Of a stretch of 61,100 nucleotides of DNA, positions 3 to 59,757 are shown one piece after another. Below the pieces are notes generated by a model. That model saw only the letters and a list, made by a program, of their open reading frames with translations. It had not been told where the DNA came from and searched no databases. Position 1 is the stretch's first letter, and every line of letters begins with the position of its first letter. The stretch comes from a virus (taxonomy: Duplodnaviria > Caudoviricetes): IMG/VR virus record IMGVR_UViG_3300021962_000107, positions 1 through 61,100 of that record, one strand, 5' to 3'. The position numbers were made by a program, and so were the translations under genes.

Positions 3-2780
3 GGATATGTAGTAAAGGCTCATGCATCTTCTGGAGAAATCTTTGTTAATATTCAAAATGGTTATGAATTAAATGAACTTCACGGAGTTTTAATAAATGG
101 AGTATCTGATAATCAAGCATTGGTATATAATTCTTCTGCAAGTTTATGGTATAACGAATCAATTGTAAATTCTTTACAAGGTACTGAAAATGAAATTAAT
201 GTTTCCGCATCCACTGGAAATATAACCATTGGCATTCCAGATTCTCCACTTTTTATAACTCCAAACATTGGGGCAGCAACAGCAACATCTATTAATGGAA
301 CCACTATTCCAACATCTGCAAGTTTAGCTACAACAGAAGATTTATATTACTATTTAACTTCTGCGTCTGCTGCTTTATTATATCAACCAATAAGTGTAAG
401 ACTTTTTAATTTAACTGCTTTAGAAAATGTTGAAGGATTTTTAAGAACAGATGGAGGCTTGGGATGGGGTATAGATACTGCAGAATATTTAACAACTGGA
501 AATGCTTCCTCAACCTATTTAACTCAACTAGACGCTTCAGATCTATATCTTACTCAGATTGATGCAGAAAATACTTATTTGACACCAGTAACTAGTGCCT
601 CAATATATCAACCACTAGACGATGACCTAACTGCTATCGCAGCACTTTCTGGATCTTCAGGATTTTTAAAGAAAACACTTACAAACACTTGGACACTTGA
701 TACAAATACATATATAACTACATATGATGCTGGAATAACTTATCAACCAATTGGAAATTATGCAACTATTAGTGGGGCAGAAACTCTAACAAATAAAACC
801 ATGAGCTCTGCATTTGTTAATGATGTTTTAACATTTGATGATGGTGCAAATTCAAGCACTATTGATGTTGCTGGAGATAATCTTACAATTAATGCATATG
901 ATGATCTGTATCTAACTACTACAATTGGAGACATTGTATTACAACCAGATCATTTTGTAAAAATATATGATGAATATGTTGCTACACAAGAATGGGTGGG
1001 TTTTCAAAACTATTTAACACAGTCTAGTGCTTCTACTACATATCAACCAATTGGAAGTTATTCTACAACTTCCCATAATCATACGTTAGACAGTCTTTCA
1101 AATGTTGTAATTACTGGAACTCCTGCAGATGGACAGGCAATTGTTTGGGATACGGCTACTTCAAAGTGGGTAAACGAAACAGTTTCTGGTGGTGGTGGAG
1201 CATCATATCCTGATCAAACTGGAAATGATGGAAAGTTTTTACAAACAAATAGTGGAAGCGTATCTTGGCAAAATGTTGACTTTACAGGATATTTAACAGA
1301 ATCATCTGCGTCTACAACATATTTAACTCAGGCTTCTGCTTCTTCAACATACCAACCTGTTGGAAGCTATTTGACATCAGAATCAGACACCCTTGAAACT
1401 GTTACTGACAGAGGTGCATCTTCTACAAATGCTATTACAATTACAAATGCCACAGCAGCTTCTTCTCCAACAACTGGAGCACTTATTGTTACAGGTGGTG
1501 TAGGAATTGGTGAAGATCTATATGTAAATAATGATGTTCATATTGGTGGAGATATACATATTACAGGATCTATTAGTGGATCTTTAACATATGTAAATGT
1601 AAGTGATTTAGTTGTTACAGATCCTTTAATTTATCTTGCTGAAAGCAATCCTAATGATTCTGTAGACATTGGTATTTTTGGTGCATTAAATCATAGCTCT
1701 TCAGCATATTATCATACTGGACTTATTAGAGATGCCTCAGATTCTGGAAAGTGGAAACTGGCTTCAAATCTTTTAGATCCAATAAACAATATTATTGATT
1801 TTACAGGTGCAACATTTGATACATTAAAAATTGGAGCACTTGAAGTAACAGATGCCTCAACAACAAGAACAAATCTTGGTCTTGCTATTGGAACAGATGT
1901 TCAGGCTTATAATTCTACACTTGCAGCAGTCGCAGGTGGAACATATACTGGTGATGATAGTATCACAACTGTTGGAACTATTACAGTTGGAACATGGAAT
2001 GGTTCAACTATTGGATATGCCTATGGTGGAACTGGATTAACAACTCTTGGAGCTGCTGGTCAAGTTCTCAAGGTTAATTCTGGAGCAACTGCTCTAGAAT
2101 GGGGATCAGCAGGACCATCCTTTACAGACTCTGCAGGTCTTGCATCTATAATTTCAGATGAAACTGGAACTGGATCTCTTGTATTTGCAGATACTCCAAC
2201 TTTAATTACACCAAATATTGGAGTTGCTACAGCAACATCTATCAATGGAACAACCATTCCATCCTCTGTAACACTAACAAAAACTTCTGATAATCTATCA
2301 GTATTTGCCAGTACAACTTCTGCAGAGTTAGCATCTATAATTACAAATGAAACTGGCTCTGGCTCTTTAGTATTTTCAAATTCTCCTACACTAGTAACCC
2401 CAAATATTGGAGCAGCAACTGGAACTTCTTTAACTACAACTGGTAATGTAATTAGTCATACTGATATTTTAACTCCAACATTTGTAACAAACTCTTATAC
2501 CTTGACAATAGGAGACGATGGTGACATATTAATGTTAAATAATTCAACTACTGCTGGAAACCTTTTAATTCCAACAGATGCTTCTGTTAATTTTCCAATT
2601 GGAACACAAATTACTATTGTTCAGCAGGGAACTGGTCTAATCACTGTATCTGCAGTAACTCCAGCAACAACCACATTAAATTCAACTCCTGGAGCTAAAC
2701 TAAGAGCACAATGGTCTTCTGCTTCATTAATAAAGACTGCAGCAAATACTTGGCTGCTAGTGGGAGATCTAACGGTATAA
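3..2780 (+). CDS. Large tail fibre / virion surface protein (5'-truncated by the window edge)
   Basis: The frame is open from nt 3 (GYVVKAHASSGEIFVNIQNGYELNELHGV...), so the ORF-track start at 120 is internal. Thr/Ser/Gly-rich, with 10-aa YLT....STY(QP) repeats, a TTGALIVTGGVGIG motif, three TPNIG.AT.TS blocks and a C-terminal FPIGTQI...LRAQWSSASLIK...WLLVGDL module typical of phage fibres. Confidence 0.75.
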   Translation, partial: GYVVKAHASSGEIFVNIQNGYELNELHGVLINGVSDNQALVYNSSASLWYNESIVNSLQGTENEINVSASTGNITIGIPDSPLFITPNIGAATATSINGTTIPTSASLATTEDLYYYLTSASAALLYQPISVRLFNLTALENVEGFLRTDGGLGWGIDTAEYLTTGNASSTYLTQLDASDLYLTQIDAENTYLTPVTSASIYQPLDDDLTAIAALSGSSGFLKKTLTNTWTLDTNTYITTYDAGITYQPIGNYATISGAETLTNKTMSSAFVNDVLTFDDGANSSTIDVAGDNLTINAYDDLYLTTTIGDIVLQPDHFVKIYDEYVATQEWVGFQNYLTQSSASTTYQPIGSYSTTSHNHTLDSLSNVVITGTPADGQAIVWDTATSKWVNETVSGGGGASYPDQTGNDGKFLQTNSGSVSWQNVDFTGYLTESSASTTYLTQASASSTYQPVGSYLTSESDTLETVTDRGASSTNAITITNATAASSPTTGALIVTGGVGIGEDLYVNNDVHIGGDIHITGSISGSLTYVNVSDLVVTDPLIYLAESNPNDSVDIGIFGALNHSSSAYYHTGLIRDASDSGKWKLASNLLDPINNIIDFTGATFDTLKIGALEVTDASTTRTNLGLAIGTDVQAYNSTLAAVAGGTYTGDDSITTVGTITVGTWNGSTIGYAYGGTGLTTLGAAGQVLKVNSGATALEWGSAGPSFTDSAGLASIISDETGTGSLVFADTPTLITPNIGVATATSINGTTIPSSVTLTKTSDNLSVFASTTSAELASIITNETGSGSLVFSNSPTLVTPNIGAATGTSLTTTGNVISHTDILTPTFVTNSYTLTIGDDGDILMLNNSTTAGNLLIPTDASVNFPIGTQITIVQQGTGLITVSAVTPATTTLNSTPGAKLRAQWSSASLIKTAANTWLLVGDLTV

Positions 2781-2787: not shown

Positions 2788-3825
2788 ATGAACATTATTG
2801 GGTCAGTTGCATCTGCAACAAGAAAAATATTTAGAGATACTTTTAATAGGGCAAATCAGACTGGAATTGGTACATCATCTGATGGATCAACCTGGAATAT
2901 AATTAGAGGATCTTTTAATATTACTACAAACAAAGCTGATGGTCAAACTCCTTCAAATTATCCAACTGCTACAGTAGATATGCCAAAAGATACAGTAACG
3001 ATTAGTTTAAGCGGTGTTACTCAAGGATCTACCGCAGCCCTATGGGTTACAGATAGTGGAAACTGGTTTGGCGTTGGAATTGATCAAGAAACAATTTCAT
3101 GTAATTGTCAAACCTGTTCAACACCAGGAAATTGTAATGCCACTAACTATGTTTGCAATGTAGCAAATTATCCTTGTAACGCTACGAACTTTTCTTGTAC
3201 AACTTGGAGTCGTGTCTGCAACTCATCAAGTTATTTTTGTGATGTTGTTGGAAATAGATTCTGTAGAGGGTATACAAGTCCTTGTAATGCTATGAGTACC
3301 CCGTTTAGTCCATGTACTGCATGGTCTAGAGTTTGTAGTAGTGGATATAATACTGGAAACTGTAACTCTACAAACTCTATGACAACGTGTAATGCATACA
3401 CTAGTCCATGTAATGCAGGAAACTATCCATGTTCTACATGGTCTACAGTATGTAATTCAGCTTCATATCCATGTGCTGCATATAATGCAACAACTTTCTA
3501 TAGTTGTAATTGTCAAACTTGTTATCCTCAATATATTAGATTTATTAGATCTGCTTCTAATACAGTAACAGAACTGACTAACTGGTTGGTGGCTAGTGTT
3601 GTTCAATCTTTTAAAGTTATTATATCTTCTATAAATCCAGCAAAAACATCAGCAACAGCAACTATAAAGCCATATTCAGACACCAACCTATCTACACAAA
3701 TTGGATCAGATTTAACATATACTCCAACTGGGGTTGCAATTAATGCAAAATATGGTATAATGGTAAAACCTTCAAGTTATTCTCAAGGAACAACTATTGA
3801 TGAAATATCAATAGAAACAAATTAA
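2788..3825 (+). CDS. Putative virion/receptor-binding protein with a 22-Cys insert
   Basis: Beta-rich N- and C-terminal parts (FRDTFNRAN start) with no Cys; the centre has 22 Cys bracketed by two CNCQTC motifs; follows the fibre gene. Confidence 0.6.
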   Translation: MNIIGSVASATRKIFRDTFNRANQTGIGTSSDGSTWNIIRGSFNITTNKADGQTPSNYPTATVDMPKDTVTISLSGVTQGSTAALWVTDSGNWFGVGIDQETISCNCQTCSTPGNCNATNYVCNVANYPCNATNFSCTTWSRVCNSSSYFCDVVGNRFCRGYTSPCNAMSTPFSPCTAWSRVCSSGYNTGNCNSTNSMTTCNAYTSPCNAGNYPCSTWSTVCNSASYPCAAYNATTFYSCNCQTCYPQYIRFIRSASNTVTELTNWLVASVVQSFKVIISSINPAKTSATATIKPYSDTNLSTQIGSDLTYTPTGVAINAKYGIMVKPSSYSQGTTIDEISIETN

Positions 3826-3835
3826 AGGAGATATA

Positions 3836-4090
3836 GTGTCAGACGAGCAAACTCTACCAGAAATTCCAGATTTAGTAGCTCCACAGTTTGAAGTGTCTCC
3901 ACATCCATATGATATTGCATTAATTGTTGATGATACTGTTTTTCAAATAATGAATGTTGATGGACAACAGGCAGCACAATTCATGTCTCAACCAAAATTT
4001 GTAAGAATTCTTCCTGGAGACTATGTTAAAATTGGATGGAAATATATTGACGGAAGCTTTGTTTATCCAAGCGAAGCTGAGGGATACTAG
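3836..4090 (+). CDS. Small fibre-associated protein (possible assembly chaperone), paralogue A
   Basis: AAGGAG SD plus GTG start; IALIVDDTVFQIM...IGWKYIDGSF; paralogous to 4814..5134. Confidence 0.6.
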   Translation: MSDEQTLPEIPDLVAPQFEVSPHPYDIALIVDDTVFQIMNVDGQQAAQFMSQPKFVRILPGDYVKIGWKYIDGSFVYPSEAEGY

Positions 4091-4103: not shown

Positions 4104-4814
4104 TTGAAGCTAATACACTTTGTATGTGCGGAATCAATGGATATTGGAAAACCGCAACCAATTAAAAAATTTATTCCAGATTGGTACAAAAAAGCAGAAA
4201 CTCATTATGTTTCTGATGAGGACGACATATCTGTTGAAAATGGAGAGCAAAAAAAGACTGCAGGTTTAAAAACATGTGTTCCATTTTTAGACGCAATGGT
4301 ATCTGGATATGCACTTGTAGTTCCATTTGATATATATGTTGGAAGAACTGAAAATGGAGATCTTGATATAAAATGGAATGCTCCACAAGGATGGGAAAAT
4401 TTTATTGAAGAAAGACCAAAGCAGTCTGGATCTACTATGCCAAGACCAGCAGGACATGCTCCAAATCATCTAGTTTGGTCAGGTAGATGGGGTATAAAAG
4501 TTCCTAGAGGATATAGCGTATTAGTTACTCATCCATTAAATAGACAAGATTTGCCTTTTACAACTTCTTCTGCAATAATGGATAGTGATAAGTTTTTTGG
4601 AAATGGAAATATTCCATTTTTTATCAAAGAAGACTTTGTAGGAGTAATAGAAAAAAATACTCCTTTTGCTCAAATAATTCCAATTAAAAGAAAAAAGTGG
4701 AAAATGGTTCACAATGATGCACTGGTATATGACATATCAAGGCAAAGTCATAGAATTAGAGAAAAAGAAGGAATGTACAAAAAGAAATATTGGACTAGAA
4801 AGGACTACTCTTAA
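4104..4814 (+). CDS. DUF6065-like protein (possible dUTPase-like beta fold), paralogue 1
   Basis: KTCVPFLDAMVSGY...PRGYSVLVTHPLNR.DLPF...IMDSD...GVIEKNTPFAQIIPIKR; paralogous to 5124..5789. Confidence 0.6.
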   Translation: MKLIHFVCAESMDIGKPQPIKKFIPDWYKKAETHYVSDEDDISVENGEQKKTAGLKTCVPFLDAMVSGYALVVPFDIYVGRTENGDLDIKWNAPQGWENFIEERPKQSGSTMPRPAGHAPNHLVWSGRWGIKVPRGYSVLVTHPLNRQDLPFTTSSAIMDSDKFFGNGNIPFFIKEDFVGVIEKNTPFAQIIPIKRKKWKMVHNDALVYDISRQSHRIREKEGMYKKKYWTRKDYS

Positions 4815-5134
4815 TGGCAAAAAATCACAATCATGAAAATGGTATAAGAGTTTTAACAACAAGAGAGATGATTAATGACTTTTTTACTAGAAGAAAAAAG
4901 TATAAAAATAAGATATCCTTAGATTCTAGTGCAATGCCACCACCTCCTCCAAGCTCTAAAATAAATTATTTAGCAATTATTTTAGATGATGAAGTGCAAG
5001 AGATAATGAGAGCACAAAATAGGTTGGCAGCACTATTACTAAGTCAGCCATTGATTGTAGAATTTGATCCAGAAGAAATTCAGCCAAATATTGGTTGGAG
5101 CTACGTTGATGGAAAATTCTATAATGAAGAGTAA
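4814..5134 (+). CDS. Small fibre-associated protein, paralogue B
   Basis: LAIILDDEVQEIM...IGWSYVDGKF aligns with 3836..4090; start overlaps the upstream stop (TAATG). Confidence 0.6.
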   Translation: MAKNHNHENGIRVLTTREMINDFFTRRKKYKNKISLDSSAMPPPPPSSKINYLAIILDDEVQEIMRAQNRLAALLLSQPLIVEFDPEEIQPNIGWSYVDGKFYNEE

Positions 5135-5789
5135 TAAAAAAATTAAATTTATATCTTGTATGCCAGAAATAGATATACCACATCCATATCCAGCAAGTAA
5201 GCTAGTTCCAGAATGGTATAGAAGACTTCCTGGTGCTTCAAATAAGGTTGAGACAGTAAAGAAATGTATTCCAATACTAGACGCACTAACTTCTGGGTAC
5301 ATGATAACTTTGCCAGTAGATGTTCATTTTAATCAAGAAGAAAAAAGTTTTTGGTACGACTCTCCATTTCAGATTAATTCTGACCACTATGTTTCACAAA
5401 CACAGGGAGTTGATATAGGTAAAGAATTTGATGAGCAACCACATAAATGGATTAATCAGTGGTTAATTGAAACTCCAAAAGGGTATAGTTGTTTATTTAT
5501 ACATCCATTAAATAGAATGGACCTTCCATTTAGATCCTTTACTGGAATTGTAGATACAGACAAACATCCAATTGCCATAAACTTTCCTTTTGTTATGAAA
5601 AAAGATTTTTCTGGAGTAATTCCAGCAGGTACTCCAATTATACAGATTATCCCATTTAAAAGAGATGACTGGTCTATGGATGTAATTGATGACAGACCTT
5701 TTAAAGAACATCCAGAGGCACATGAAGTAGAAAATCCACCGTTCAACTGGTATAAAAGAAAATGGTGGACAAGAAAGGTATATTCTTAA
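5124..5789 (+). CDS. DUF6065-like protein, paralogue 2
   Basis: KKCIPILDALTSGY...PKGYSCLFIHPLNR.DLPF...GIVDTD...GTPIIQIIPFKR; start placed at ATG 5124 by alignment with paralogue 1. Confidence 0.6.
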   Translation: MKSNKKIKFISCMPEIDIPHPYPASKLVPEWYRRLPGASNKVETVKKCIPILDALTSGYMITLPVDVHFNQEEKSFWYDSPFQINSDHYVSQTQGVDIGKEFDEQPHKWINQWLIETPKGYSCLFIHPLNRMDLPFRSFTGIVDTDKHPIAINFPFVMKKDFSGVIPAGTPIIQIIPFKRDDWSMDVIDDRPFKEHPEAHEVENPPFNWYKRKWWTRKVYS

Positions 5790-6754
5790 TGGAAACAATC
5801 TATGTTGGAATACCATCAATGGTTGATACCGAAACAGCTGCCACTATTAGGAATGCTATAGAATATGCAGAGTTTCCAGAAAGAGTTTTTATTGGAGTTT
5901 CTTTTAAAGATTTAAATAAAAAAGAATATAAAAAAGTTTTAGATTTAAAAAAAGAATATCCAAACATAACTGTAGAGTTTATAAAACTTAAAAAAAGAGA
6001 TGTATCTCAATATGGAACTGGAGATGGTAGATATAGAGCACAAAAACTATACTCTGGTCAAGATTATATGCTTCAGGTAGATTCTCATACATATTTTGAT
6101 AAAAACTGGGATTCTTATTTAATAAAATCATTTAAAGAATTTAAAAGTGAGACTGGAATAGAAAAATTTGTACTTACATCATACATACCATATTATTCAT
6201 ACGCTCCACATAGAGTTAGACACTCAGGAGATCTATACCTTCCAAGGTATCCACATCTACTTGTAGACCAGTTTTTCCTAGGCTATTTACCTAAATGGGA
6301 TGACACAACAATTCCAAAAGAAAAAAACTTACCTAAATTTTTACCATGTGTAAAATTTAACGGAGCCTTCGCATTTGGAGACAAAAATTTTATCAACAAT
6401 ACTGGAGTTTTTAAGGATGCAATATTTTACGATGAGGAATTAATTCAAAGTATAAATTTAGTTGGAAATGGATTTGCTTTAGTTTTTCTAAATGTTACAG
6501 ATTTTCCAATAGCACATCTATACTCTGCAGACATTAATAAGTTTGGTGGCAAAAGAACATACTTTGGAGATCTTTTAAGCTTAAGAAAACAAAAGGAAGT
6601 GGCAGATAAAGCCGTATCAAATTATTTAAACTTTATATCAAATCCAGAAAATAAAGAACGTGTTAAAAAATATGAAAAATATGCTAAAATGGATTCTAGG
6701 CGTGGAGCCCTTTTTAATAACTATATACCTAAAAAATTTATTGTGGAGGATTAA
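5789..6754 (+). CDS. GT60/GlcNAc-family glycosyltransferase (Skp1 hydroxyproline GlcNAc-transferase-like)
   Basis: TIYVGIPSMVD...AEFPERVFIG...RYRAQKLYSGQDYMLQVDSHTYFDKNWD...FNGAFAF...EE...HLY match the family pattern (QxDSH); start overlaps the upstream stop. Confidence 0.75.
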   Translation: METIYVGIPSMVDTETAATIRNAIEYAEFPERVFIGVSFKDLNKKEYKKVLDLKKEYPNITVEFIKLKKRDVSQYGTGDGRYRAQKLYSGQDYMLQVDSHTYFDKNWDSYLIKSFKEFKSETGIEKFVLTSYIPYYSYAPHRVRHSGDLYLPRYPHLLVDQFFLGYLPKWDDTTIPKEKNLPKFLPCVKFNGAFAFGDKNFINNTGVFKDAIFYDEELIQSINLVGNGFALVFLNVTDFPIAHLYSADINKFGGKRTYFGDLLSLRKQKEVADKAVSNYLNFISNPENKERVKKYEKYAKMDSRRGALFNNYIPKKFIVED

Positions 6755-6755
6755 T

Positions 6756-7067
6756 ATGGACAATGTACCAGATATTCCAGAACTGGTATACCCAAAAGTT
6801 GTAGAGGAAAAAAACTCAGATGCAAAAAGACCCGTCAGACCATGGGATATATTTAATAAAAATGTTGAAAAAGTAGCAGAAAATGTTCAAAAAGAAAGAA
6901 TGTCAACATGCTTGCAATGTCCTAGATTAATTAAGGCTACAAGGCAATGTAAAGAATGTGGATGCTTTATGGATGCAAAGACTAGGCTTTTTGATGCAGA
7001 ATGTCCATTAGGAAAATGGAGTCAGATAAAAGTTAGCAGAGATCAGTTTGATTATAAGAACGGATAA
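6756..7067 (+). CDS. Cys-cluster protein (DUF6171-like)
   Basis: GGAGG SD before ATG 6756; RMSTCLQCP...QCKECGCFM..K......CPLGKW (6 Cys). Confidence 0.65.
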   Translation: MDNVPDIPELVYPKVVEEKNSDAKRPVRPWDIFNKNVEKVAENVQKERMSTCLQCPRLIKATRQCKECGCFMDAKTRLFDAECPLGKWSQIKVSRDQFDYKNG

Positions 7068-7069
7068 TA

Positions 7070-7810
7070 ATGCCTGAAATAAGTATCGTAACTGGTAATG
7101 CAACCAACATGTCTTTTATTAATAGCTCCTCTGTTGATTTAATTATTGCCGCACCCCCATTTATTTATAAAAGTCCAGAAATATATGGAGGAGATCCAAA
7201 AAAACAAATAAACTTTAATCATAATAAAATGTTAAATCTTCTTATTAAAAGTACTAAAGAGATGGAAAGAGTTTTAAAGCTAACAGGAAGTATATGGATT
7301 GAAATATCTCCAGAAGATGACTTAATGCATAGATATATTTCAAAAGTATTAAAAAAAACTAATTTAAAACATGTTGATACAATTATTCATAAAATATCAG
7401 AAGATGAATATAAGTCAAAAAATGATGAATTTATTTATAAAGATTGGTATTTATGGTTTCATCTTGTAAAAGATTCTGATGCATTCTATAAAAATCCATT
7501 TAAAATAAAAAAATTTAGAGACCCATTATGGGAGTTGAAAAATACAAATAAAGATGATATAATTGACAAAACTTTAAGACTAAATTATCCAAATATTCCT
7601 AATTACACTGTTATTAAAGATATACCAGAAAGGCTTATCGAAATGTACACTAAACAAGGTGGTCTAGTTTTAGATCCATTTGGAGGAAGTGGAACGGTTG
7701 CTTCTGTGGCTTATAATTTAAATAGAAATGCCATAAGTGTTGATATATCTGAGGATCAAACAGAGATAGCAAAAAGAAGACTAGAATTAACGAAAAGTAT
7801 TGATAAGTGA
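7070..7810 (+). CDS. N4/N6 DNA methyltransferase family (beta class) with a degenerate catalytic motif
   Basis: SVDLIIAAPPF near the N-terminus where (S/D)PPY is expected; VLDPFGGSGT SAM-binding motif near the C-terminus. Confidence 0.7.
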   Translation: MPEISIVTGNATNMSFINSSSVDLIIAAPPFIYKSPEIYGGDPKKQINFNHNKMLNLLIKSTKEMERVLKLTGSIWIEISPEDDLMHRYISKVLKKTNLKHVDTIIHKISEDEYKSKNDEFIYKDWYLWFHLVKDSDAFYKNPFKIKKFRDPLWELKNTNKDDIIDKTLRLNYPNIPNYTVIKDIPERLIEMYTKQGGLVLDPFGGSGTVASVAYNLNRNAISVDISEDQTEIAKRRLELTKSIDK

Positions 7811-8535
7811 TGTTTAATAAAAAATACATAGAAATTAATAGACTTTCTGAAACTCCAGTATTTGAAGTAATTCCAGGAAAAGTAAAAAGAAAATGGATGG
7901 ATAAAACAGAAGGAAATGCCTATAAGTGTGTTCCAATGAATGTTGCAAATTCTTATGGGTGGACTGTTTTATCTCCTTTAGAATTTTCTGCAACTTGGGA
8001 TGGTGGGAATGCAAAACATTCTCTTCAAGTTGATTTGCCAGCAAATAGTCCATTTAGATTTGCAGCATCTGAGTTTGGTCATGGAATTTTATCTATTGTT
8101 CCAGATTTTATAGTTAGAACATCAAAGAATGTTTCTTTATATGTAAGGGGAGTTCCAAATCAACTTGCTATAGGTCTACAGCCATTTGATGGCATAATTG
8201 AAACAGATTGGCTACCTTTTACTTTTACATTTAATTATAAGTTTATTAAATCTGGAAGGTTAACAATTAAAAAAGATCAACCACTTTTTACATTTTTTCC
8301 AATAGAAAGAGGATATATAGAAAATTTTGAAACTAGAGACATAAATGTTTATGATGATAAAGAGTTTTATGAAGATTATTTAAAATACTCAGACCTAAGA
8401 GAGGATCAAAACTCTGGCAAAGATAGTAAAAATGGTGGTGCATATTTAAAAGGTAAGTTATACGATAAAGAGTTTGAAATAGAAAATCATATAAAAAAGG
8501 TTAGCCTTTCAGAGTTTAAAAAGAAGGAAAAATAG
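7810..8535 (+). CDS. DUF6065 family protein, paralogue 3 (more divergent)
   Basis: RKWMD...AYKCVPMNVANSYGW...FGHGILS...GVPN...GIIETDWLPFTFTFN. Confidence 0.7.
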   Translation: MFNKKYIEINRLSETPVFEVIPGKVKRKWMDKTEGNAYKCVPMNVANSYGWTVLSPLEFSATWDGGNAKHSLQVDLPANSPFRFAASEFGHGILSIVPDFIVRTSKNVSLYVRGVPNQLAIGLQPFDGIIETDWLPFTFTFNYKFIKSGRLTIKKDQPLFTFFPIERGYIENFETRDINVYDDKEFYEDYLKYSDLREDQNSGKDSKNGGAYLKGKLYDKEFEIENHIKKVSLSEFKKKEK

Positions 8536-9443
8536 TGTCAAAATATCTTATAACTGGTGGTCCAGGGTCTCTTGGAAAAGAAATTTGTAAACAACTTTTA
8601 AACTTTTCAGATACTGAAGAAATTACAATGTTTTCTAGAAATGAAACAAAGCAGTTTGAATCCTCTATGGATATAAATGATAGAAGAGTTAAATATATTA
8701 TTGGAGACATTAAAAATTTTAATTCTTTATTTAATGCAATGAATGGAGTTGATTTTGTATTTCATGCTGCAGCATTAAAACACATAGATTTAGCAGAAAA
8801 GTCACCAGATGAAACCATTAATGTAAATGTTGTTGGAACAAATAATGTAGTAAATGCAGCTATTCAAAATAATGTAAAAAAAGTTTTACTAATTTCTACT
8901 GATAAGGCTTGTATACCAACCAGTATATATGGCGTAAGTAAGCTGCTATCTGAAAAAAATATAATATTATCAAATAATATATCTGATACAAAGTTTTCTG
9001 TAGTAAGATTTGGAAATTTAATTGGAAGTAACGGATCTATTTTCCAAAAATGGAAGATAATGAAGGATAGTGGTCAAAGGATATCCGTTACAGATAAAGA
9101 TATGACAAGACTTTTTATTAGAAGCTCAGATGCTGCTTCTTGGGCAATTAAATTTTTGTTAATAATGAATGGTAGCGAAATTTTTGTCCCTAAGATGAAA
9201 AGTGCAAACATTTATGAAATTGCCAAGTCCTTTATTGATGAGTCAAGAATAGATATAGTTGGAACTAGACCTGGAGAAAAGTTAGATGAAGATATTCTAT
9301 CTAGTTTAGAGCTTGGATCTGTTGACGATCTTGGAGATTTTTATATTTTAAATAATGATAATAAAGTTGGAAACTTTTCATATAATAGTAGTACTAATAA
9401 ATACTGGTATTCTGGAAAAGAAATAAAAGATTTTTTTAATTAG
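8535..9443 (+). CDS. UDP-GlcNAc 4,6-dehydratase (PseB/CapD-like SDR)
   Basis: LITGGPGSLG, FHAAALKHI, ISTDKA, YGVSK, VRFGNLIGSNGS, MTRLF, RPGEKL. Confidence 0.85.
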   Translation: MSKYLITGGPGSLGKEICKQLLNFSDTEEITMFSRNETKQFESSMDINDRRVKYIIGDIKNFNSLFNAMNGVDFVFHAAALKHIDLAEKSPDETINVNVVGTNNVVNAAIQNNVKKVLLISTDKACIPTSIYGVSKLLSEKNIILSNNISDTKFSVVRFGNLIGSNGSIFQKWKIMKDSGQRISVTDKDMTRLFIRSSDAASWAIKFLLIMNGSEIFVPKMKSANIYEIAKSFIDESRIDIVGTRPGEKLDEDILSSLELGSVDDLGDFYILNNDNKVGNFSYNSSTNKYWYSGKEIKDFFN

Positions 9444-12448: not shown

Positions 12449-13264
12449 ATGGCTATTCAATGGGGATCCTGGGTATACGCTGGTGGAAACGGTATGCGTA
12501 TTGGTCTGGATATATCCTGGTCAGCTGTTGATTCAGGATCATCTAGTACAACTGCAACAATAGCTGTTTGGACTCAAAATCAGTATAACTATGCTGATGC
12601 TCAAACAATTACATATGGTGGCTCATTATCTGGAACAACAAACTATACAAATAATGGTGCTACTGGAACTAGCACACAAAGAGCAACAAAAACTTATACT
12701 CACACATATGGCTCAAACCCTGCAACATTTACTTTTTCTGCAACACTTTCTGGTCTATACAATGGTGGAAATCCAAGTGTTTCAGTTTCCAGTACTACTC
12801 CAACTAGACCTGCTCCACCACCTCCACCACCTCCTCCACCTCCTCCGCCTCCTCCACCTCCTCCTCCAATATTTGCTCCATCTGCACCACAGTCATTTGC
12901 TGCAAATACTAACACTTTTGGACAAATAGGTCTTTCATGGTCAGCACCAGCTAGTAATGGCGGTTCTGCTGTAACTAGTTATGTGCTTCGTAATGGCACA
13001 ACTGTGTTACAAAATAGCTTATCCACATCTTATACTCATACAGGTCTATCTCCAGATACGGATTATTCCTATACAGTTACTGCTGCCAATGCTGTTGGTG
13101 AAGGAGCTGCAGCATCTCTAACAGCTAGAACTCTTGGAGGAATTGTAAAAGTATGGAATGGTACACAATATGTAACAGCTATTCCAAAAGTGTGGAATGG
13201 ATCATCATGGGTCAATGCTCAGGCAAGAGTTTGGAATGGAACAGAATGGAAATATGGAATTTAA
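12449..13264 (+). CDS. Virion protein with an 18-Pro linker and a fibronectin type III domain
   Basis: P18 at 12815-12868; APSAP...LSWSAPASNGGSAVTSY...GLSPDTDYSYTVTAANAVGEG is FN3; C-terminal (K/R)VWNG x3. Confidence 0.8.
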   Translation: MAIQWGSWVYAGGNGMRIGLDISWSAVDSGSSSTTATIAVWTQNQYNYADAQTITYGGSLSGTTNYTNNGATGTSTQRATKTYTHTYGSNPATFTFSATLSGLYNGGNPSVSVSSTTPTRPAPPPPPPPPPPPPPPPPPPIFAPSAPQSFAANTNTFGQIGLSWSAPASNGGSAVTSYVLRNGTTVLQNSLSTSYTHTGLSPDTDYSYTVTAANAVGEGAAASLTARTLGGIVKVWNGTQYVTAIPKVWNGSSWVNAQARVWNGTEWKYGI

Positions 13265-13327: not shown

Positions 13328-13633
13328 ATGGTACTCAATTTAACAAAATCACAAAAAGAAATGTTGCAATCTTATGGTCGTTCATTTCTAGGTGCAGCTA
13401 TTGCACTATATATGGCAGGTAATACAGATCCTTATACATATATCTATGCCTTAGTAGCTGCATTTGCTCCAGTTGCAATTAGATTCTTTAATAAGAATGA
13501 TATTGCTTTTGGAAAAGTTAATGGAAATTCTTCAGCAGATGAAGTTGCAACAGAAGTTGTTGCAGCAGTAAAGAAAGTTGCTAAAAAGGCTCCAGCTAAG
13601 AAGTCCTCATCAAAAAAAACTGATACAAAGTAA
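13328..13633 (+). CDS. Holin-like membrane protein with a Lys/Ala-rich tail
   Basis: Two hydrophobic segments (SFLGAAIALYMAG; IYALVAAFAPVAIRFF); basic tail KKVAKKAPAKKSSSKK. Confidence 0.5.
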   Translation: MVLNLTKSQKEMLQSYGRSFLGAAIALYMAGNTDPYTYIYALVAAFAPVAIRFFNKNDIAFGKVNGNSSADEVATEVVAAVKKVAKKAPAKKSSSKKTDTK

Positions 13634-13646
13634 GATATACTAAACC

Positions 13647-14738
13647 ATGCCATCTCCAACAATTGCTTTTTTAACCTACGACTGGTCATTCGGTGTAAAA
13701 CCATTACAACCAAATGGCTGTGGTTGGTACAGATGCTATCTACCAATGAAGCAGTTGAAGGAGCATGGCTGGGAAAGTGGAATAGGTCTTCCAGGATTTA
13801 GTCCAGAACATGCCTTTGGAATTTTATTGCCAGAAGAAAAGGCAATTCATGGATGGGACATTATCGTATTAAAGTTAATCATGCTTGAAAGGTTTGTTGA
13901 CCATGTTAAGAGAGCAAAAGAACTTGGTCAAAAAATTGTTGTTGATATTGATGATCATATGGAAGGTCTTGAAGAAACTAACCTTGCCTATAAAACAACT
14001 CATCCAGATTCAAATCCAAAAAATAACAGAGAGCACTATGTTGCTATTATGGATCAGGCAGATGCTTTAATTACTTCTACCCCATTTTTATATGATTTTT
14101 ATAAAGAAAAATATCCAGAAAAACCAATCTTTATGGTAAGAAATGGCATAGACATTGAAAGATGGAATATGAGAAAAGATCATAAAGGATGGCTACCTAC
14201 TTTTGGATGGGTTGGTGCAACACCTTGGAGATCTGGAGATTTAGAAACCCTTAATCCATTCTTTGGTGAATTCTTAAAACAAAAACATTTAAAGTTTCAT
14301 CATGCAGGAAATATTATTAATGCTCCAACTGCTGCTCAGCAAATTGGAATAGATAAAAGACTTTGTACTGTAGAGCCTATGAAGACAATGTTAGGAGTTC
14401 CAGAACTTTATAGAAAAATGGATGTTGGAATTGTTCCTCTAAGAAATGTTCCATTTAATCATGCTAAGTCATATCTAAAAGGTTTAGAAAATGCAGCAGC
14501 AGGAATTCCTTTTATTGCATCTGGAGGACTTCCAGAATATCAGCTATTTGCTGATGAGGGCGTTGGAAGAATAGCAAACACACCTGATGAATGGATTGGT
14601 CATATGACAGAACTTTTAAATCCAAAAGTAAGACTTGAAGAAAGAATGAAAAATCGTGAAATCATATCTGAAAAATTCTCTATGAAGCAAAGAGGGTATG
14701 ATTGGGACGAAGTGTTCAGAAAAATTCTTGCACTATAA
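13647..14738 (+). CDS. GT-B (GT4-like) glycosyltransferase
   Basis: GCGWYRC..P, DIDD, RNGID, FGWVG, DVGIVPL...FNHAKSYLKGLENAAAGIPFIAS. Confidence 0.8.
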   Translation: MPSPTIAFLTYDWSFGVKPLQPNGCGWYRCYLPMKQLKEHGWESGIGLPGFSPEHAFGILLPEEKAIHGWDIIVLKLIMLERFVDHVKRAKELGQKIVVDIDDHMEGLEETNLAYKTTHPDSNPKNNREHYVAIMDQADALITSTPFLYDFYKEKYPEKPIFMVRNGIDIERWNMRKDHKGWLPTFGWVGATPWRSGDLETLNPFFGEFLKQKHLKFHHAGNIINAPTAAQQIGIDKRLCTVEPMKTMLGVPELYRKMDVGIVPLRNVPFNHAKSYLKGLENAAAGIPFIASGGLPEYQLFADEGVGRIANTPDEWIGHMTELLNPKVRLEERMKNREIISEKFSMKQRGYDWDEVFRKILAL

Positions 14739-41291: not shown

Positions 41292-42275
41292 ATGCCAGGC
41301 GAAAATTCAGGTCCAGCAGGAGCGGCAAATACTAGGAGAACTTCTCCTCCACCACCACCTCCACCAAGGAAAAGTCCACCCCCTCCACCTCCTCCTCCAC
41401 CAAGGAAGACACCTCCGCCACCACCGCCACCACCCCCACCGCCTCCACCAAGAAGCGACTCCGTTCAAGCAGCACAAGCTGCTGCAAGACTTGCCTCTCC
41501 ACCACCTCCTCCAAGAAGCGACTCCGTTCAAGCAGCACAAGCTGCTGCAAAGGCTTCTGCACAAGTTACGGCAGAAGCAGCAAAGTATGCTGAAGCTGGA
41601 CCAAACTTTAAAGGAGCTGGAGTAACTCCATATTTAGATAAAAATGGAAATGTAACACCAATAAGTACTAGCTCAGGACCATCAAAAACACCTCCACCAC
41701 CTCCAGCAGTGGATGATTTTGTAGAAGTTCTTAAAATAATGGATCCAACCCCAGAGCCACCAATGACAATTATGCCAGTTCCTGACTCTGTTGTAAAAAT
41801 TGCAACAAGAAATGTTACAGATATTTCTTCATTAGTTCCACAATTTGATCCAGAATATATTAAGAAAATATTGTTTGAAAATCTTTCTGCAATAGAGTTA
41901 TCAATAGTTGAAAGACACGATACAATTGAGGGAATTAATCAAAGGTATTCTATTATTTCTAACCTTTCTGAAATAAGAGAAAAATATGATGTAGCTAAAC
42001 AATTAACTGTTATGGACAAGTTTAAGCCACTAACAAAAATTTTTACTATTAATATTGAAGATAAAATTCCTCAAGAAGACTATCTTGTATTAGAAGGTCT
42101 TGACTCTACCTATCAATACCTTGATCAAAATAATAATATAGTTACTCGTGAAAAGGGGTATTATTATATTGACACTAATGGAGACCTTGTTATAGAGTTA
42201 ATAAACTTAGAAAAAAACCAGGAAGTAGAGATTTTGATAGACACAAATGGTACAATATATAGGATGGAATCATGA
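41292..42275 (+). CDS. Minor tail-region protein with an extensin-like Pro-rich N-terminus
   Basis: SP7-RK-SP9-RK-TP13 tracts; duplicated RSDSVQAAQAAA; globular C-terminal half. Confidence 0.7.
   Translation: MPGENSGPAGAANTRRTSPPPPPPPRKSPPPPPPPPPRKTPPPPPPPPPPPPPRSDSVQAAQAAARLASPPPPPRSDSVQAAQAAAKASAQVTAEAAKYAEAGPNFKGAGVTPYLDKNGNVTPISTSSGPSKTPPPPPAVDDFVEVLKIMDPTPEPPMTIMPVPDSVVKIATRNVTDISSLVPQFDPEYIKKILFENLSAIELSIVERHDTIEGINQRYSIISNLSEIREKYDVAKQLTVMDKFKPLTKIFTINIEDKIPQEDYLVLEGLDSTYQYLDQNNNIVTREKGYYYIDTNGDLVIELINLEKNQEVEILIDTNGTIYRMES
41448..41550 (+). repeat. Identical 40-nt direct repeat, 63 nt apart
   Basis: ccaagaagcgactccgttcaagcagcacaagctgctgcaa at 41448-41487 and 41511-41550. Confidence 0.9.
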
Positions 42276-58743: not shown

Positions 58744-59757
58744 ATGAGTAAGAGAGTTCTTTTAACAGGTGCAAGTGGTTTTGTTGGAAGCCATGTACTA
58801 AGGCACTTATTAGTAAACACAGACTGGTTTATAGTTTGTCCAACAACATTTACACACAAAGGTCTAACTGATAGAATCAATGTTGCATGTGATGATTTTC
58901 CAGATGCATATAGCAGAATTAAAGTAATTAAGACAGACTTAACTGCACCAATTTCTCCAGTAACAGCACACGCATTTGGAAAAATTGATTACGTTTTAAA
59001 TGTTGCTAGTGAAAGCCATGTTGATAGAAGTATTGAAGAACCAACCCCATTCATTTTGAATAATGTTTCTTTGATCTGTAACTTGCTTGATTGGGCAAGA
59101 ATTGCAAAGCCAGAAAAGTTTTTGCATATCTCAACAGATGAAGTCTATGGTCCTGCACCAAAGGGACATGCTCATAAGGAATGGGTAGATCAATACTTCC
59201 CAAGCAATCCTTATTCTGCATCAAAGGCAGCACAAGAAAGTATCGCATTCTCATACTGGAGAACTTATGGAATTCCAATTGCTATTACTAATACTATGAA
59301 TATTATTGGCGAAACTCAGGATACAGAAAAGTTTATGCCAATGGTAATTAAAAAGGTTTTGAATGGAGACACTATGAAAATTCATGCATCTCCAGAAGGT
59401 GAGATTGGAAGTCGTTTTTATTTACATGCTCGTAATCAAGCAGACGGTCTTCTTCACGTCCTTAAGCAACACTTTCCACTTTATGGAGAGTCAGACGTAC
59501 CAGAAAAGTTTCACATTGTTGGTGAAAGAGAAGTTGATAATTTAGAAATGGCTCAAATGATTGCTTCAGCAGTAGGAAAGCCACTACGTTATGAATTAGA
59601 AGACTTCCATTCTTCACGCCCAGGACATGATTTAAGATATGCATTAGATGGTAAGAAGATATCTGATACAGGTTGGACAGCCCCTATGCCATTAGAAGAA
59701 TCTATTAGAAAGACTGTTGAGTGGACTCTTAAGCATCCAGAATGGCTAAACTTGTGA
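58744..59757 (+). CDS. rmlB: dTDP-glucose 4,6-dehydratase-like SDR
   Basis: TGASGFVG, ASESHVDRSI, STDEVYG, PYSASK, RPGHDLRYALD. Confidence 0.88.
   Translation: MSKRVLLTGASGFVGSHVLRHLLVNTDWFIVCPTTFTHKGLTDRINVACDDFPDAYSRIKVIKTDLTAPISPVTAHAFGKIDYVLNVASESHVDRSIEEPTPFILNNVSLICNLLDWARIAKPEKFLHISTDEVYGPAPKGHAHKEWVDQYFPSNPYSASKAAQESIAFSYWRTYGIPIAITNTMNIIGETQDTEKFMPMVIKKVLNGDTMKIHASPEGEIGSRFYLHARNQADGLLHVLKQHFPLYGESDVPEKFHIVGEREVDNLEMAQMIASAVGKPLRYELEDFHSSRPGHDLRYALDGKKISDTGWTAPMPLEESIRKTVEWTLKHPEWLNL

What the first reader, a model, noticed from the sequence alone, without database searches (positions are those of the whole stretch)
5789..6754. GT60-like hydroxyproline GlcNAc-transferase in a phage that also encodes polyproline virion proteins
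Established: the characterised GT60 enzyme (Dictyostelium Gnt1) adds GlcNAc to hydroxyproline, relatives act on Thr/Ser, and virion glycosylation is known in some mycobacteriophages. Seen: QVDSH-type motifs here, plus P18 (12815-12868), SP7/SP9/TP13 (from 41343) and P5 (in 4814..5134). Inference: a eukaryote-style Hyp or Ser/Thr O-glycosylation pathway acting on the virion. Caveat: no 2OG-Fe(II) prolyl hydroxylase is recognisable in this window.
Basis: partly seen in the sequence, partly recalled or inferred. Interest (0 to 1): 0.8.

Follow-up and report, generated by a model that had tools for sequence, protein, structure and literature searches.

The report
Phage protein-glycosylating enzyme beside tail fibres
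This phage gene really encodes a relative of the enzymes that attach a first sugar to proteins, it sits in a conserved cassette next to tail-fibre genes, and related phages add proline hydroxylases and proline-rich proteins to the same cassette, pointing to an unstudied way of decorating phage particles.

Summary
ORF 5789-6754 matches Pfam PF11397 (GT60) at 76.9 bits. Its model is closest to polypeptide GalNAc-transferases (Z 21). All polyproline tracts lie at the stated coordinates.

The proposed link is only partly supported. The GT is kept at 81% identity in a complete relative (G001) that has no P6+ tract and no P4H-type gene. There the polyPro spacer of the tail-module protein is replaced by a charged helix. 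PolyPro therefore looks like an exchangeable rigid spacer, not the enzyme's conserved acceptor.

What travels with the GT is a cassette. DUF6065-like genes with a dUTPase-like fold (not a hydroxylase) lie directly upstream in 34 of 80 viral loci. The cassette always follows Ser/Thr-rich fibre genes.

The missing hydroxylase exists in relatives. Both polyPro-bearing relatives carry a prolyl-hydroxylase-like gene beyond where this contig ends. Other phages pack Pro-rich FN3 protein, P4H, DUF6065 and GT60 into one operon. Of 80 phage P4H loci, 67 hold DUF6065 and 37 a Pro-rich ORF.

Best reading: a cytoplasmic virion-protein O-glycosyltransferase acting on Ser/Thr. Hyp remains a live minority option. 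DNA glycosylation is unlikely.

The parts
5789..6754 (+). GT60-like (PF11397) GT-A glycosyltransferase, 321 aa. The DxH motif LQVDSHT is at 6071-6091, FYDEE at 6425-6439 and the invariant His243 at 6515-6517.
5124..5789 (+). DUF6065-like paralogue b (phrog_7084) with a dUTPase-like fold. Its stop overlaps the GT start (TAATG).
4104..4814 (+). DUF6065-like paralogue a (phrog_7084)
7807..8535 (+). DUF6065 proper (PF19541, 186.7 bits), paralogue c
3836..4090 (+). Small 84-aa protein that precedes paralogue a. It shares a roughly 50-aa C-terminal domain with the 106-aa protein.
4814..5134 (+). Small 106-aa paralogue that precedes paralogue b. It carries the non-conserved P5 tract (4937-4951).
6756..7067 (+). 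DUF6171-like Cys-rich small protein (phrog_13558), starting directly after the GT stop
3..2780 (+). Ser/Thr-rich tail-fibre-like protein, truncated at its 5' end by the contig end. The orthologue in G011 is 1079 aa.
2788..3825 (+). Cys-rich, Ser/Thr-rich repeat protein that follows the fibre gene
7070..7810 (+). N6/N4 DNA methyltransferase (PF01555). It sits in varying positions within the cassette in relatives.
8535..9443 (+). Polysacc_synt_2 nucleotide-sugar dehydratase/epimerase
12449..13264 (+). N-terminal domain, P18 spacer (12815-12868) and FN3 protein
13647..14738 (+). Second glycosyltransferase (Glyco_trans_1_4-like, phrog_7162). It lies after a holin-like 101-aa ORF (13328-13633).
41292..42275 (+). 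Tail-module protein with S/T-preceded P7, P9, P13, P5 and P5 tracts (41346-41705). It lies between a minor tail protein and a tail protein.
58744..59757 (+). NAD-dependent sugar epimerase/dehydratase

Best explanation
ORF 5789-6754 encodes a soluble, metal-dependent GT-A glycosyltransferase of the GT60/GT27 type. It works in the infected cell's cytoplasm. It probably transfers a first HexNAc from a UDP-sugar onto hydroxyl groups of phage structural proteins.

Its conserved acceptors are most likely Ser/Thr in the Ser/Thr-rich tail-fibre-cluster proteins encoded just upstream. In this phage they may also include the Ser/Thr that flank the polyPro spacers.

The gene is the last of a conserved, translationally coupled cassette: small protein, DUF6065, small protein, DUF6065, GT. 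The cassette follows the fibre genes. Other sugar enzymes in the window could supply or extend the glycan.

Shown here: family membership, fold, conserved metal-site residues, cassette conservation, position beside fibre genes, and independence from polyPro and P4H in complete relatives. Inferred: the donor sugar, the acceptor proteins and residues, and that the product ends up on the virion.
For: Family and fold. PF11397 scores 76.9 bits. The model has pLDDT 94. The 29 best VIA rows are all polypeptide GalNAc-transferases, with Z 21.0-17.2 over about 260 residues. Generic GT-A enzymes score 16.4 or less. Foldseek agrees, best E 7e-11. D98, H100, H243 and Y214-D215-E216 are invariant in 34 homologues. 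The characterised GT60 members are polypeptide alpha-GlcNAc-transferases acting on Hyp of Skp1 or on T. cruzi polypeptides (passage read in PMC6939170).

Context. A DUF6065-like gene lies within 400 bp upstream on the same strand in 34 of 80 viral GT loci, and within 10 kb in 47 of 80. The stop and start overlap in the window. In 37 of 42 cassette loci the next upstream ORF of at least 250 aa has an S+T fraction of 0.19-0.34, median 0.25. The median of 400 other ORFs is 0.13. This holds in sipho-like and sheath-bearing lineages alike. All genes share one strand with the portal, capsid and tail genes.

Independence from Hyp. The GT is present in the complete genomes G001 and G004, which have 0 PF13640, PF13759 or PF03171 hits and 0 P6+ runs. 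G001 still has an S/T/P/E-rich linker protein.
Against: No acceptor is shown; every acceptor statement is inferred from context. Many of the 80 loci are near-duplicates, so the counts overstate independent events. Bacterial PF11397 genes sit in unrelated contexts, for example a T6SS cluster or between folP and glmM, and 0 of 80 have DUF6065 nearby. The family therefore need not always act on virion-like proteins. In the subset of phages with P4H-like genes adjacent to GT60-like genes, Hyp is the more natural acceptor. G004 keeps the GT with no Pro-rich ORF among 97, and its acceptor is unknown.
Confidence: 0.45

Rival explanations
1. One reading: a phage prolyl hydroxylase converts prolines of the polyPro or Pro-rich virion proteins to Hyp, and the GT60-like enzyme then adds GlcNAc to Hyp, as PhyA and Gnt1 do on Skp1.
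For: Gnt1, a GT60 member, is Hyp-specific (PMC6939170 passage).

Among records with a GT at least 55% identical, polyPro and a PF13640 gene occur together in G002 and G011. Both are absent from G001 (complete), G012 and G032. That is 5 of 5 informative records. In G002 and G011 the order is P4H-like, DUF6065, fibre, at the far end of the fibre cluster and outside this contig. All 5 PDB sequence matches of that oxygenase are prolyl hydroxylases.

G033 and G036 have the order Pro-rich FN3 protein, PF13640, DUF6065, PF11397, PF13640, PF11397. L046 packs DUF6065, GT60, DUF6065, P4H and DUF6065 together. Of 80 phage P4H loci, 67 hold DUF6065 and 37 a Pro-rich ORF: 40 of 869 ORFs, against 5 of 872 in bacterial loci.
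Against: No hydroxylase is in the window. The GT is conserved without P4H and without polyPro in two complete genomes. P4H-type genes are no commoner in GT-bearing records (3 of 9) than in GT-lacking ones (4 of 19). Only 7 of 80 GT loci and 4 of 80 P4H loci hold the other gene. The GTs next to P4H in G033 are distant paralogues, scoring about 95 bits against the family profile where orthologues score about 500. The polyPro spacers are exchangeable. A note in the reference list of PMC7019647 says no Hyp was found in PBCV-1 particles although that virus has a P4H (reference list only).
Confidence: 0.2
2. The enzyme acts on something other than virion proteins: a host protein (takeover), a host envelope precursor, or a small molecule. 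Its position next to fibre genes would then reflect a variable accessory island.
For: The region between fibre and head genes is variable. It also holds a DNA methylase, a PNKP-like phosphatase and sugar enzymes. The GT is accessory: a complete relative by capsid protein, G024, lacks it. Bacterial family members occur in diverse contexts. PHROGs files the family under 'moron, auxiliary metabolic gene and host takeover'.
Against: The same cassette order follows fibre genes in divergent lineages, with GT identity from 29% to 85%. The ppGalNAc-T-like fold points to a polypeptide acceptor. By inspection of the sequence and model, there is no membrane segment of the kind needed for undecaprenyl-linked O-antigen modification.
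Confidence: 0.2
3. The enzyme glycosylates phage DNA at a hydroxylated pyrimidine. The dUTPase-fold DUF6065 proteins would reshape the nucleotide pool and the adjacent methylase would belong to the pathway.
For: Three dUTPase-fold paralogues and a DNA methylase flank the GT. Phage GT-A enzymes that glycosylate DNA exist (bioRxiv 10.1101/2023.12.21.572611, passages).
Against: There is no thymidylate-synthase homologue in 0 of 5 relatives and no C5-methyltransferase in 0 of 6. Tet/JBP also gave 0 of 6, but that control rang nowhere, so it is uninformative. The methylase is the N6/N4 type. The published DNA GT-A enzymes resemble JGT and TarP and carry R..DDD..EDY/F motifs; this protein has DxH and matches ppGalNAc-Ts. 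DUF6065 shows no sequence match to dUTPase: PF00692 gave 0 of 5 and hhalign gave probability 0.7%.
Confidence: 0.03

Closest known systems
CAZy GT60 / Pfam PF11397: Gnt1 (Skp1 Hyp alpha-GlcNAc-transferase) and the T. cruzi polypeptide alpha-GlcNAc-transferase
   Same: The Pfam match is above the cut-off. The protein is a soluble GT-A enzyme with a DxH motif, and a polypeptide acceptor is expected.
   Different: It is a divergent member: 76.9 bits against 160-246 bits for bacterial members. It is phage-encoded and coupled to DUF6065 genes. There is no Skp1, and no PhyA-type gene in the window or in two complete relatives.
GT27 polypeptide GalNAc-transferases (mucin-type O-glycosylation)
   Same: These are the best structural matches, Z 21 over about 262 residues. 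They share a DSH metal motif. The residue equivalence is recalled, not aligned here.
   Different: There is no lectin domain; the protein is only 321 aa. There is no sequence-level match to any PDB chain. Identity is about 11-15%.
Mycobacteriophage virion glycosylation (Freeman et al. 2023, seen only as cited in PMC12619734)
   Same: Phage-encoded glycosyltransferases near structural genes decorate virion proteins.
   Different: The host group and GT families differ. The known targets there are the C-termini of capsid and tail-tube subunits. Here the context is tail fibres, DUF6065 and, in relatives, P4H-like genes.
Chlorovirus PBCV-1 prolyl 4-hydroxylase with Pro-rich repeat proteins (Eriksson et al. 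1999; title seen in the reference list of PMC7019647; substrates recalled)
   Same: A virus-encoded P4H sits together with virus-encoded Pro-rich repeats, as in G033, G011 and 37 of 80 phage P4H loci.
   Different: That is a eukaryotic virus. No GT60 or DUF6065 partner is known there, as far as I recall.
Phage DNA GT-A glycosyltransferases (Pyle et al., bioRxiv 10.1101/2023.12.21.572611)
   Same: Phage-encoded GT-A fold.
   Different: Those are JGT/TarP-like with DDD motifs and co-occur with 5mYOX or ThyS. None of these features is found here.

Membership tests
GT60 / PF11397 | Match to the family HMM above the curated cut-off | tested here: met
   76.9 bits against 21. All 70 homologue clusters carry PF11397.
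GT60 / PF11397 | GT-A fold with a DxH motif and a distal His metal site | tested here: met
   The GT-A model has pLDDT 94. D98-S-H100 and H243 are invariant. That H243 is the third metal ligand is inferred, not aligned residue by residue.
GT60 / PF11397 | UDP-GlcNAc donor with retaining alpha-transfer | not testable with these tools
   This needs an enzyme assay.
GT60 / PF11397 | Polypeptide acceptor (Hyp or Thr) | not testable with these tools
   Only context is available: fibre genes upstream and P4H with Pro-rich proteins in some relatives.
Skp1-type Hyp glycosylation pathway | A prolyl 4-hydroxylase in the same genome | tested here: inconclusive
   None is in the window, but the contig is about 52% complete. 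One is present in G002, G011 and G003. It is absent from the complete genomes G001 and G004.
GT27 ppGalNAc-T | Sequence membership and a C-terminal ricin-type lectin domain | tested here: not met
   There is no PDB sequence hit with either the protein or the profile. The 321-aa protein aligns only to the catalytic domain.
Phage DNA GT-A (JGT-like) | Co-occurrence with ThyS or 5mYOX plus C5-MT, and DDD/EDY motifs | tested here: not met
   PF00303 gave 0 of 5 and PF00145 gave 0 of 6. The motif is DSH. The Tet_JBP search was uninformative.
DUF6065 / PF19541 (neighbouring genes) | HMM match above the cut-off | tested here: met
   ORF 7807-8535 scores 186.7 bits. ORF 5064-5789 scores 22.3 against a cut-off of 26.6, and ORF 4104-4814 has no Pfam hit; both of these match phrog_7084.
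dUTPase / dCTP deaminase (neighbouring genes) | Sequence membership and catalytic motifs | tested here: not met
   Only the fold matches: 20 of the 22 chains with Z of 5 or more are dUTPases or dCTP deaminases, best Z 10.0. PF00692 gave 0 of 5. hhalign gave probability 0.7%.
2OG-Fe(II) prolyl hydroxylase (neighbouring genes as hidden P4H) | Double-stranded beta-helix fold with an HxD...H triad | tested here: not met
   Cupin-type chains score Z of 3.0 or less. No invariant His is present in the DUF6065 alignment.

The most novel reading that the evidence does not exclude
The window shows one end of a widespread, undescribed phage system that builds hydroxyproline-rich, extensin-like (glyco)protein appendages. 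Its parts would be:
- FN3 proteins with polyPro or (S/T)PPPxF, FFPP or VTPP repeats.
- Arrays of prolyl-hydroxylase-like oxygenases.
- DUF6065 proteins, which have a dUTPase-like fold and an unknown role.
- In some lineages, GT60-like enzymes that glycosylate Hyp or the neighbouring Ser/Thr.

All of these are encoded beside tail-fibre genes. In this phage the P4H-DUF6065 pair would lie just beyond the contig's 5' end, as it does in G011.
Probability: 0.3. Interest if true: 0.85.

Novelty: new variant of a known kind. Interest (0 to 1): 0.62.

Why it matters
Virion glycosylation is experimentally known only in mycobacteriophages (as cited in PMC12619734). My literature searches found nothing on GT60-type enzymes, DUF6065 or hydroxyproline in bacteriophage particles.

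If the cassette modifies tail fibres or Pro-rich spacers, it could affect host recognition, particle stability or evasion of host surface defences in abundant aquatic phages. It would also give three currently empty annotations a testable function: phage 'GlcNAc transferase', 'prolyl 4-hydroxylase AMG' and DUF6065.

The P4H / DUF6065 / Pro-rich-protein association (67 of 80 and 37 of 80 loci) can be tested directly by co-expression and mass spectrometry.

Tried and rejected
- Complex prediction: complex prediction of the GT with DUF6065 paralogue b returned no verdict, score 0.00. It says nothing either way.
- PDB sequence searches: the GT protein and profile, and DUF6065, gave no usable hit.
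- dUTPase motifs: I first read 'GIVDTD', 'HPLNR' and 'GTPxxQ' in DUF6065 as remnants of dUTPase motifs. hhalign against four bacterial dUTPases gave probability 0.7%, so I dropped that claim and keep only the fold match.
- Hidden hydroxylase: I suspected the DUF6065 genes were the missing 2OG oxygenase. The fold rejects this.
- CCN x6 pattern as a polyPro proxy: in G014, G024, G026, G027 and G025 the hits are the reverse complement of poly-Gly in Gly-rich fibre genes. Only G000, G002 and G011 have real polyPro.
- Annotated phage collection: megablast found nothing, and tblastn found one distant hit in Xanthomonas phage Xoo-sp13.
- Relatives of the G033 GT: a single-protein search for them found only 2 loci.
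- Earlier findings: the search of earlier findings returned nothing.
- Papers: Freeman et al. 2023 is not held. Supplements were not consulted; the supplementary tables of Pyle et al. list GT-A families and could bear on the DNA rival.
- Tools left unused: the search of protein representatives, sequencing-run tools.
Full report
**What the window is.** The window is a whole IMG/VR viral contig of 61.1 kb, estimated to be about 52% complete. Nearly all genes lie on the + strand. They include a portal, a protease and a capsid protein, and a tape-measure protein, DNA polymerase III alpha, DnaB, primase and RecA. There are also minor tail and tail proteins. It is a large tailed phage with low G+C. 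No record in the annotated phage collection resembles it at DNA level.

**The observation.** ORF 5789-6754 matches PF11397 (GT60 'GlcNAc') at E 2.7e-21 and 76.9 bits, against a cut-off of 21. It also matches a PHROG glycosyltransferase family. The start is the ATG at 5789. It overlaps the stop of the upstream gene as TAATG, and homologues begin at the same residue. Every polyPro tract is at the stated coordinates.

**The enzyme.**
- Seventy homologue clusters were found, all metagenomic, all carrying PF11397 and none with an informative name.
- In an alignment of 34 of these sequences, D98, H100 (the DSH motif), H243, and Y214, D215 and E216 of 'FYDEE' are invariant.
- Sequence and profile searches of the PDB find nothing.
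- The AlphaFold model is confident, with pLDDT 94.1.
- Its best Foldseek matches are polypeptide GalNAc-transferases, best E 7e-11.
- In the VIA re-alignment, the first 29 entries are all ppGalNAc-Ts, with Z from 21.0 to 17.2 and about 260 aligned residues. LARGE1 and generic GT-A enzymes follow at Z of 17.2 or less.
- Among predicted viral structures, the best match is a UniProt entry already auto-named 'Glycosyltransferase, GlcNAc [uncultured Caudovirales phage]', with TM 0.91 and 43% identity.

Such genes are therefore already labelled in databases, but I found no study of them. The characterised GT60 enzymes are polypeptide alpha-GlcNAc-transferases: Gnt1 on Hyp of Skp1, dependent on PhyA, and the T. 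cruzi enzyme (passage in PMC6939170).

**Distribution.** At least 415 viral contigs encode a relative, as do 146 of 165 candidate stretches in prokaryote genomes. The bacterial members score higher against the Pfam model (160-246 bits). They sit in unrelated contexts, such as a Morganella T6SS cluster beside a fimbrial-like gene, or between folP and glmM in Limnobacter.

**The neighbourhood.** The window's gene order is:
1. Ser/Thr-rich fibre (3-2780).
2. Cys-rich Ser/Thr-rich protein (2788-3825).
3. An 84-aa protein.
4. DUF6065-like paralogue a.
5. A 106-aa paralogue of the 84-aa protein.
6. DUF6065-like paralogue b.
7. The GT.
8. A DUF6171-like Cys-rich protein.

This order recurs in relatives whose GT is 29-85% identical. 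A DUF6065-like ORF lies within 400 bp upstream on the same strand in 34 of 80 viral loci, and within 10 kb in 47 of 80. None of the 80 bacterial loci has one.

In 37 of 42 cassette loci, the next upstream ORF of at least 250 aa has an S+T fraction of 0.19-0.34, with median 0.25. The median of 400 other ORFs is 0.13, and only 10% of those reach 0.25. The pattern also holds in contigs with a tail-sheath-like gene, where further GT-like and methyltransferase-like ORFs sit among the fibre genes. Those last labels are by eye. Many loci are near-duplicates, so these are not independent counts.

**DUF6065 is not the missing hydroxylase.** The model of paralogue b has pLDDT 84. Of the 22 chains with Z of 5 or more, 20 are dUTPases or dCTP deaminases, best Z 10.0 over 134 residues. 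The other two are herpesvirus proteins. Cupins score 3.0 or less, and Foldseek agrees. Sequence membership in the dUTPase family is not supported. Its role is unknown.

The sample was 28 records: the window, five GT-bearing contigs, and 22 capsid-protein relatives of at least 37 kb.
- The GT is in 9 of the 28 records.
- Real polyPro of six or more residues is in 3 of those 9 (G000, G002, G011) and in 0 of the 19 without the GT.
- The apparent hits in five GT-less records are poly-Gly read on the other strand.
- The three positives are close relatives, so this association cannot be separated from descent.
- Six GT-bearing records have no such tract. Among them are G001 (complete, terminal repeats, GT 81% identical, syntenic) and G004 (complete).

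In G001, the orthologue of the 327-aa tail-module protein carries an Ala-rich and Glu/Arg/Lys-rich helix where the window has polyPro. G002 has such a helix plus P19. The spacer of the FN3 protein is P17, P16, P13, P11, P5 or absent in orthologues. The P5 tract of the 106-aa protein is not conserved. PolyPro therefore behaves as an exchangeable rigid spacer. The GT does not depend on it.

**The hydroxylase.**
- No PF13640, PF13759 or PF03171 gene is in the window. An HMM that I built from 23 phage P4H-like ORFs also finds none there.
- G001 and G004 have none either.
- G002 and G011, the two relatives with polyPro, each have one PF13640 gene. It abuts a DUF6065 gene and then a tail fibre, at the far end of a fibre cluster of about 14 kb.
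- The window begins inside the last large fibre gene, so the equivalent place lies off the contig.
- All 5 PDB sequence matches of the G011 protein are prolyl hydroxylases, best E 8.6e-5.
- Among records with a GT at least 55% identical, polyPro and P4H are both present (G002, G011) or both absent (G001, G012, G032). That is 5 of 5 informative records, but the sample is small and related.
- Genome-wide, P4H-type genes are not enriched with the GT: 3 of 9 against 4 of 19.

**A wider system.** Close homologues of the G011 oxygenase are flanked by GT60-like genes in 2 of 5 longer contigs. In G033 the order is: a fibre-like protein; a 249-aa FN3 protein with about twenty (S/T)PPPxF repeats (27% Pro); PF13640; DUF6065; PF11397; PF13640; PF11397; DUF6065; an unassigned ORF; a carbamoyltransferase; and a fibre.

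I then collected 80 phage loci centred on P4H-like genes.
- 67 hold DUF6065.
- Most hold 2 to 11 P4H-like copies.
- 37 hold a Pro-rich ORF (at least 16 Pro in 40 residues). That is 40 of 869 ORFs, against 14 of 1207 in the GT loci and 5 of 872 in the bacterial loci.
- Only 4 hold the GT.
- The Pro-rich ORFs include polyPro linkers next to FN3-like segments, and ATPPPII, FFPP and VTPP repeats.
- Conversely, 7 of 80 GT loci hold a P4H-like ORF.

The strong triad is therefore P4H-like, DUF6065 and Pro-rich protein. The GT60-like enzyme is an occasional member.

**DNA as target.** No thymidylate-synthase homologue was found in 5 relatives, and no C5-methyltransferase in 6 records (the window and five relatives). 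The Tet/JBP search was uninformative. The adjacent methylase is the N6/N4 type. The published phage DNA GT-A enzymes resemble JGT and TarP, carry DDD motifs and co-occur with 5mYOX or ThyS (passages of bioRxiv 10.1101/2023.12.21.572611). DNA is unlikely.

**Verdict.** The gene is a real, intact, divergent GT60-family enzyme with a polypeptide-glycosyltransferase fold. It is encoded as the last gene of a conserved cassette behind tail-fibre genes.
- Most likely (0.45), it O-glycosylates Ser/Thr of fibre-cluster and other virion proteins, independently of Hyp.
- A Hyp-directed role in this particular phage stays open (0.2), because its nearest polyPro-bearing relatives have the hydroxylase where this contig ends.
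- A non-virion target is possible (0.2).
- DNA is improbable (0.03).

The more interesting lead is the undescribed association of P4H, DUF6065 and Pro-rich FN3 proteins in phages.

Noticed in passing
window 4104-4814, 5124-5789, 7807-8535; loci L286-L365: DUF6065-like proteins have a dUTPase-like predicted fold. They occur in 67 of 80 phage loci centred on prolyl-hydroxylase-like genes, often interleaved with 2-11 tandem oxygenase copies. Their role is unexplained.
   Followed up: partly
L281 10389-11135 (-); L305 5158-5961; L292 2031-2522; L316 1654-2988; L295 3600-4109: Phage ORFs with FN3-like segments plus long polyPro or (S/T)PPPxF, ATPPPII, FFPP or VTPP repeats lie next to P4H-like genes. 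They resemble extensin-like repeat proteins.
   Followed up: partly
window 2788-3825: A 345-aa protein has a central run of Cys-spaced repeats rich in N-x-S/T. It is conserved (17-26 Cys) between the fibre gene and the cassette in many relatives. It has no family match.
   Followed up: no
window 3836-3900 and 6756-6800: The 84-aa protein and the unrelated DUF6171-like protein share an N-terminal Pro-containing motif (LPEIPDLVAP / VPDIPELVYP). The motif varies in parallel between the two proteins in relatives.
   Followed up: no
L167 1060-1992 (G001) versus window 41292-42275: Orthologous tail-module proteins swap a polyPro spacer for an Ala-rich plus Glu/Arg/Lys-rich helix. This looks like interchangeable rigid rulers.
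   Followed up: partly
L254, L255 (G024, G014): Clusters of 325-510-aa fibre-like genes contain 23-32% Gly and poly-Gly runs of 6-9 residues. On the opposite strand they mimic polyPro codon runs.
   Followed up: partly
L088 6117-12281; L098; L089: Alphaproteobacterial MAG contigs hold very long ORFs (about 2054, 1114 and 811 aa) that score strongly against the GT profile (337 bits for L088, against 106-116 bits for single-domain bacterial ORFs of about 330 aa). This suggests several GT60-like domains, which I did not check.
   Followed up: no
L090 2914-11605: In Morganella morganii a PF11397 gene (245.6 bits) sits inside a type VI secretion cluster (TssF, TssG, ImpA_N) next to a fimbrial-domain protein and an OmpA-domain protein.
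   Followed up: no
window 13328-14738: A holin-like two-helix 101-aa ORF and a second, GT-B-like glycosyltransferase directly follow the P18-FN3 gene. The holin-like ORF also accompanies distant GT60-like genes in about 20 other loci.
   Followed up: no
L281 3169-4578 (-): A carbamoyltransferase (NodU/CmcH type) is encoded in the G033 and G036 P4H/GT60 cassette. This suggests carbamoylated glycans.
   Followed up: no
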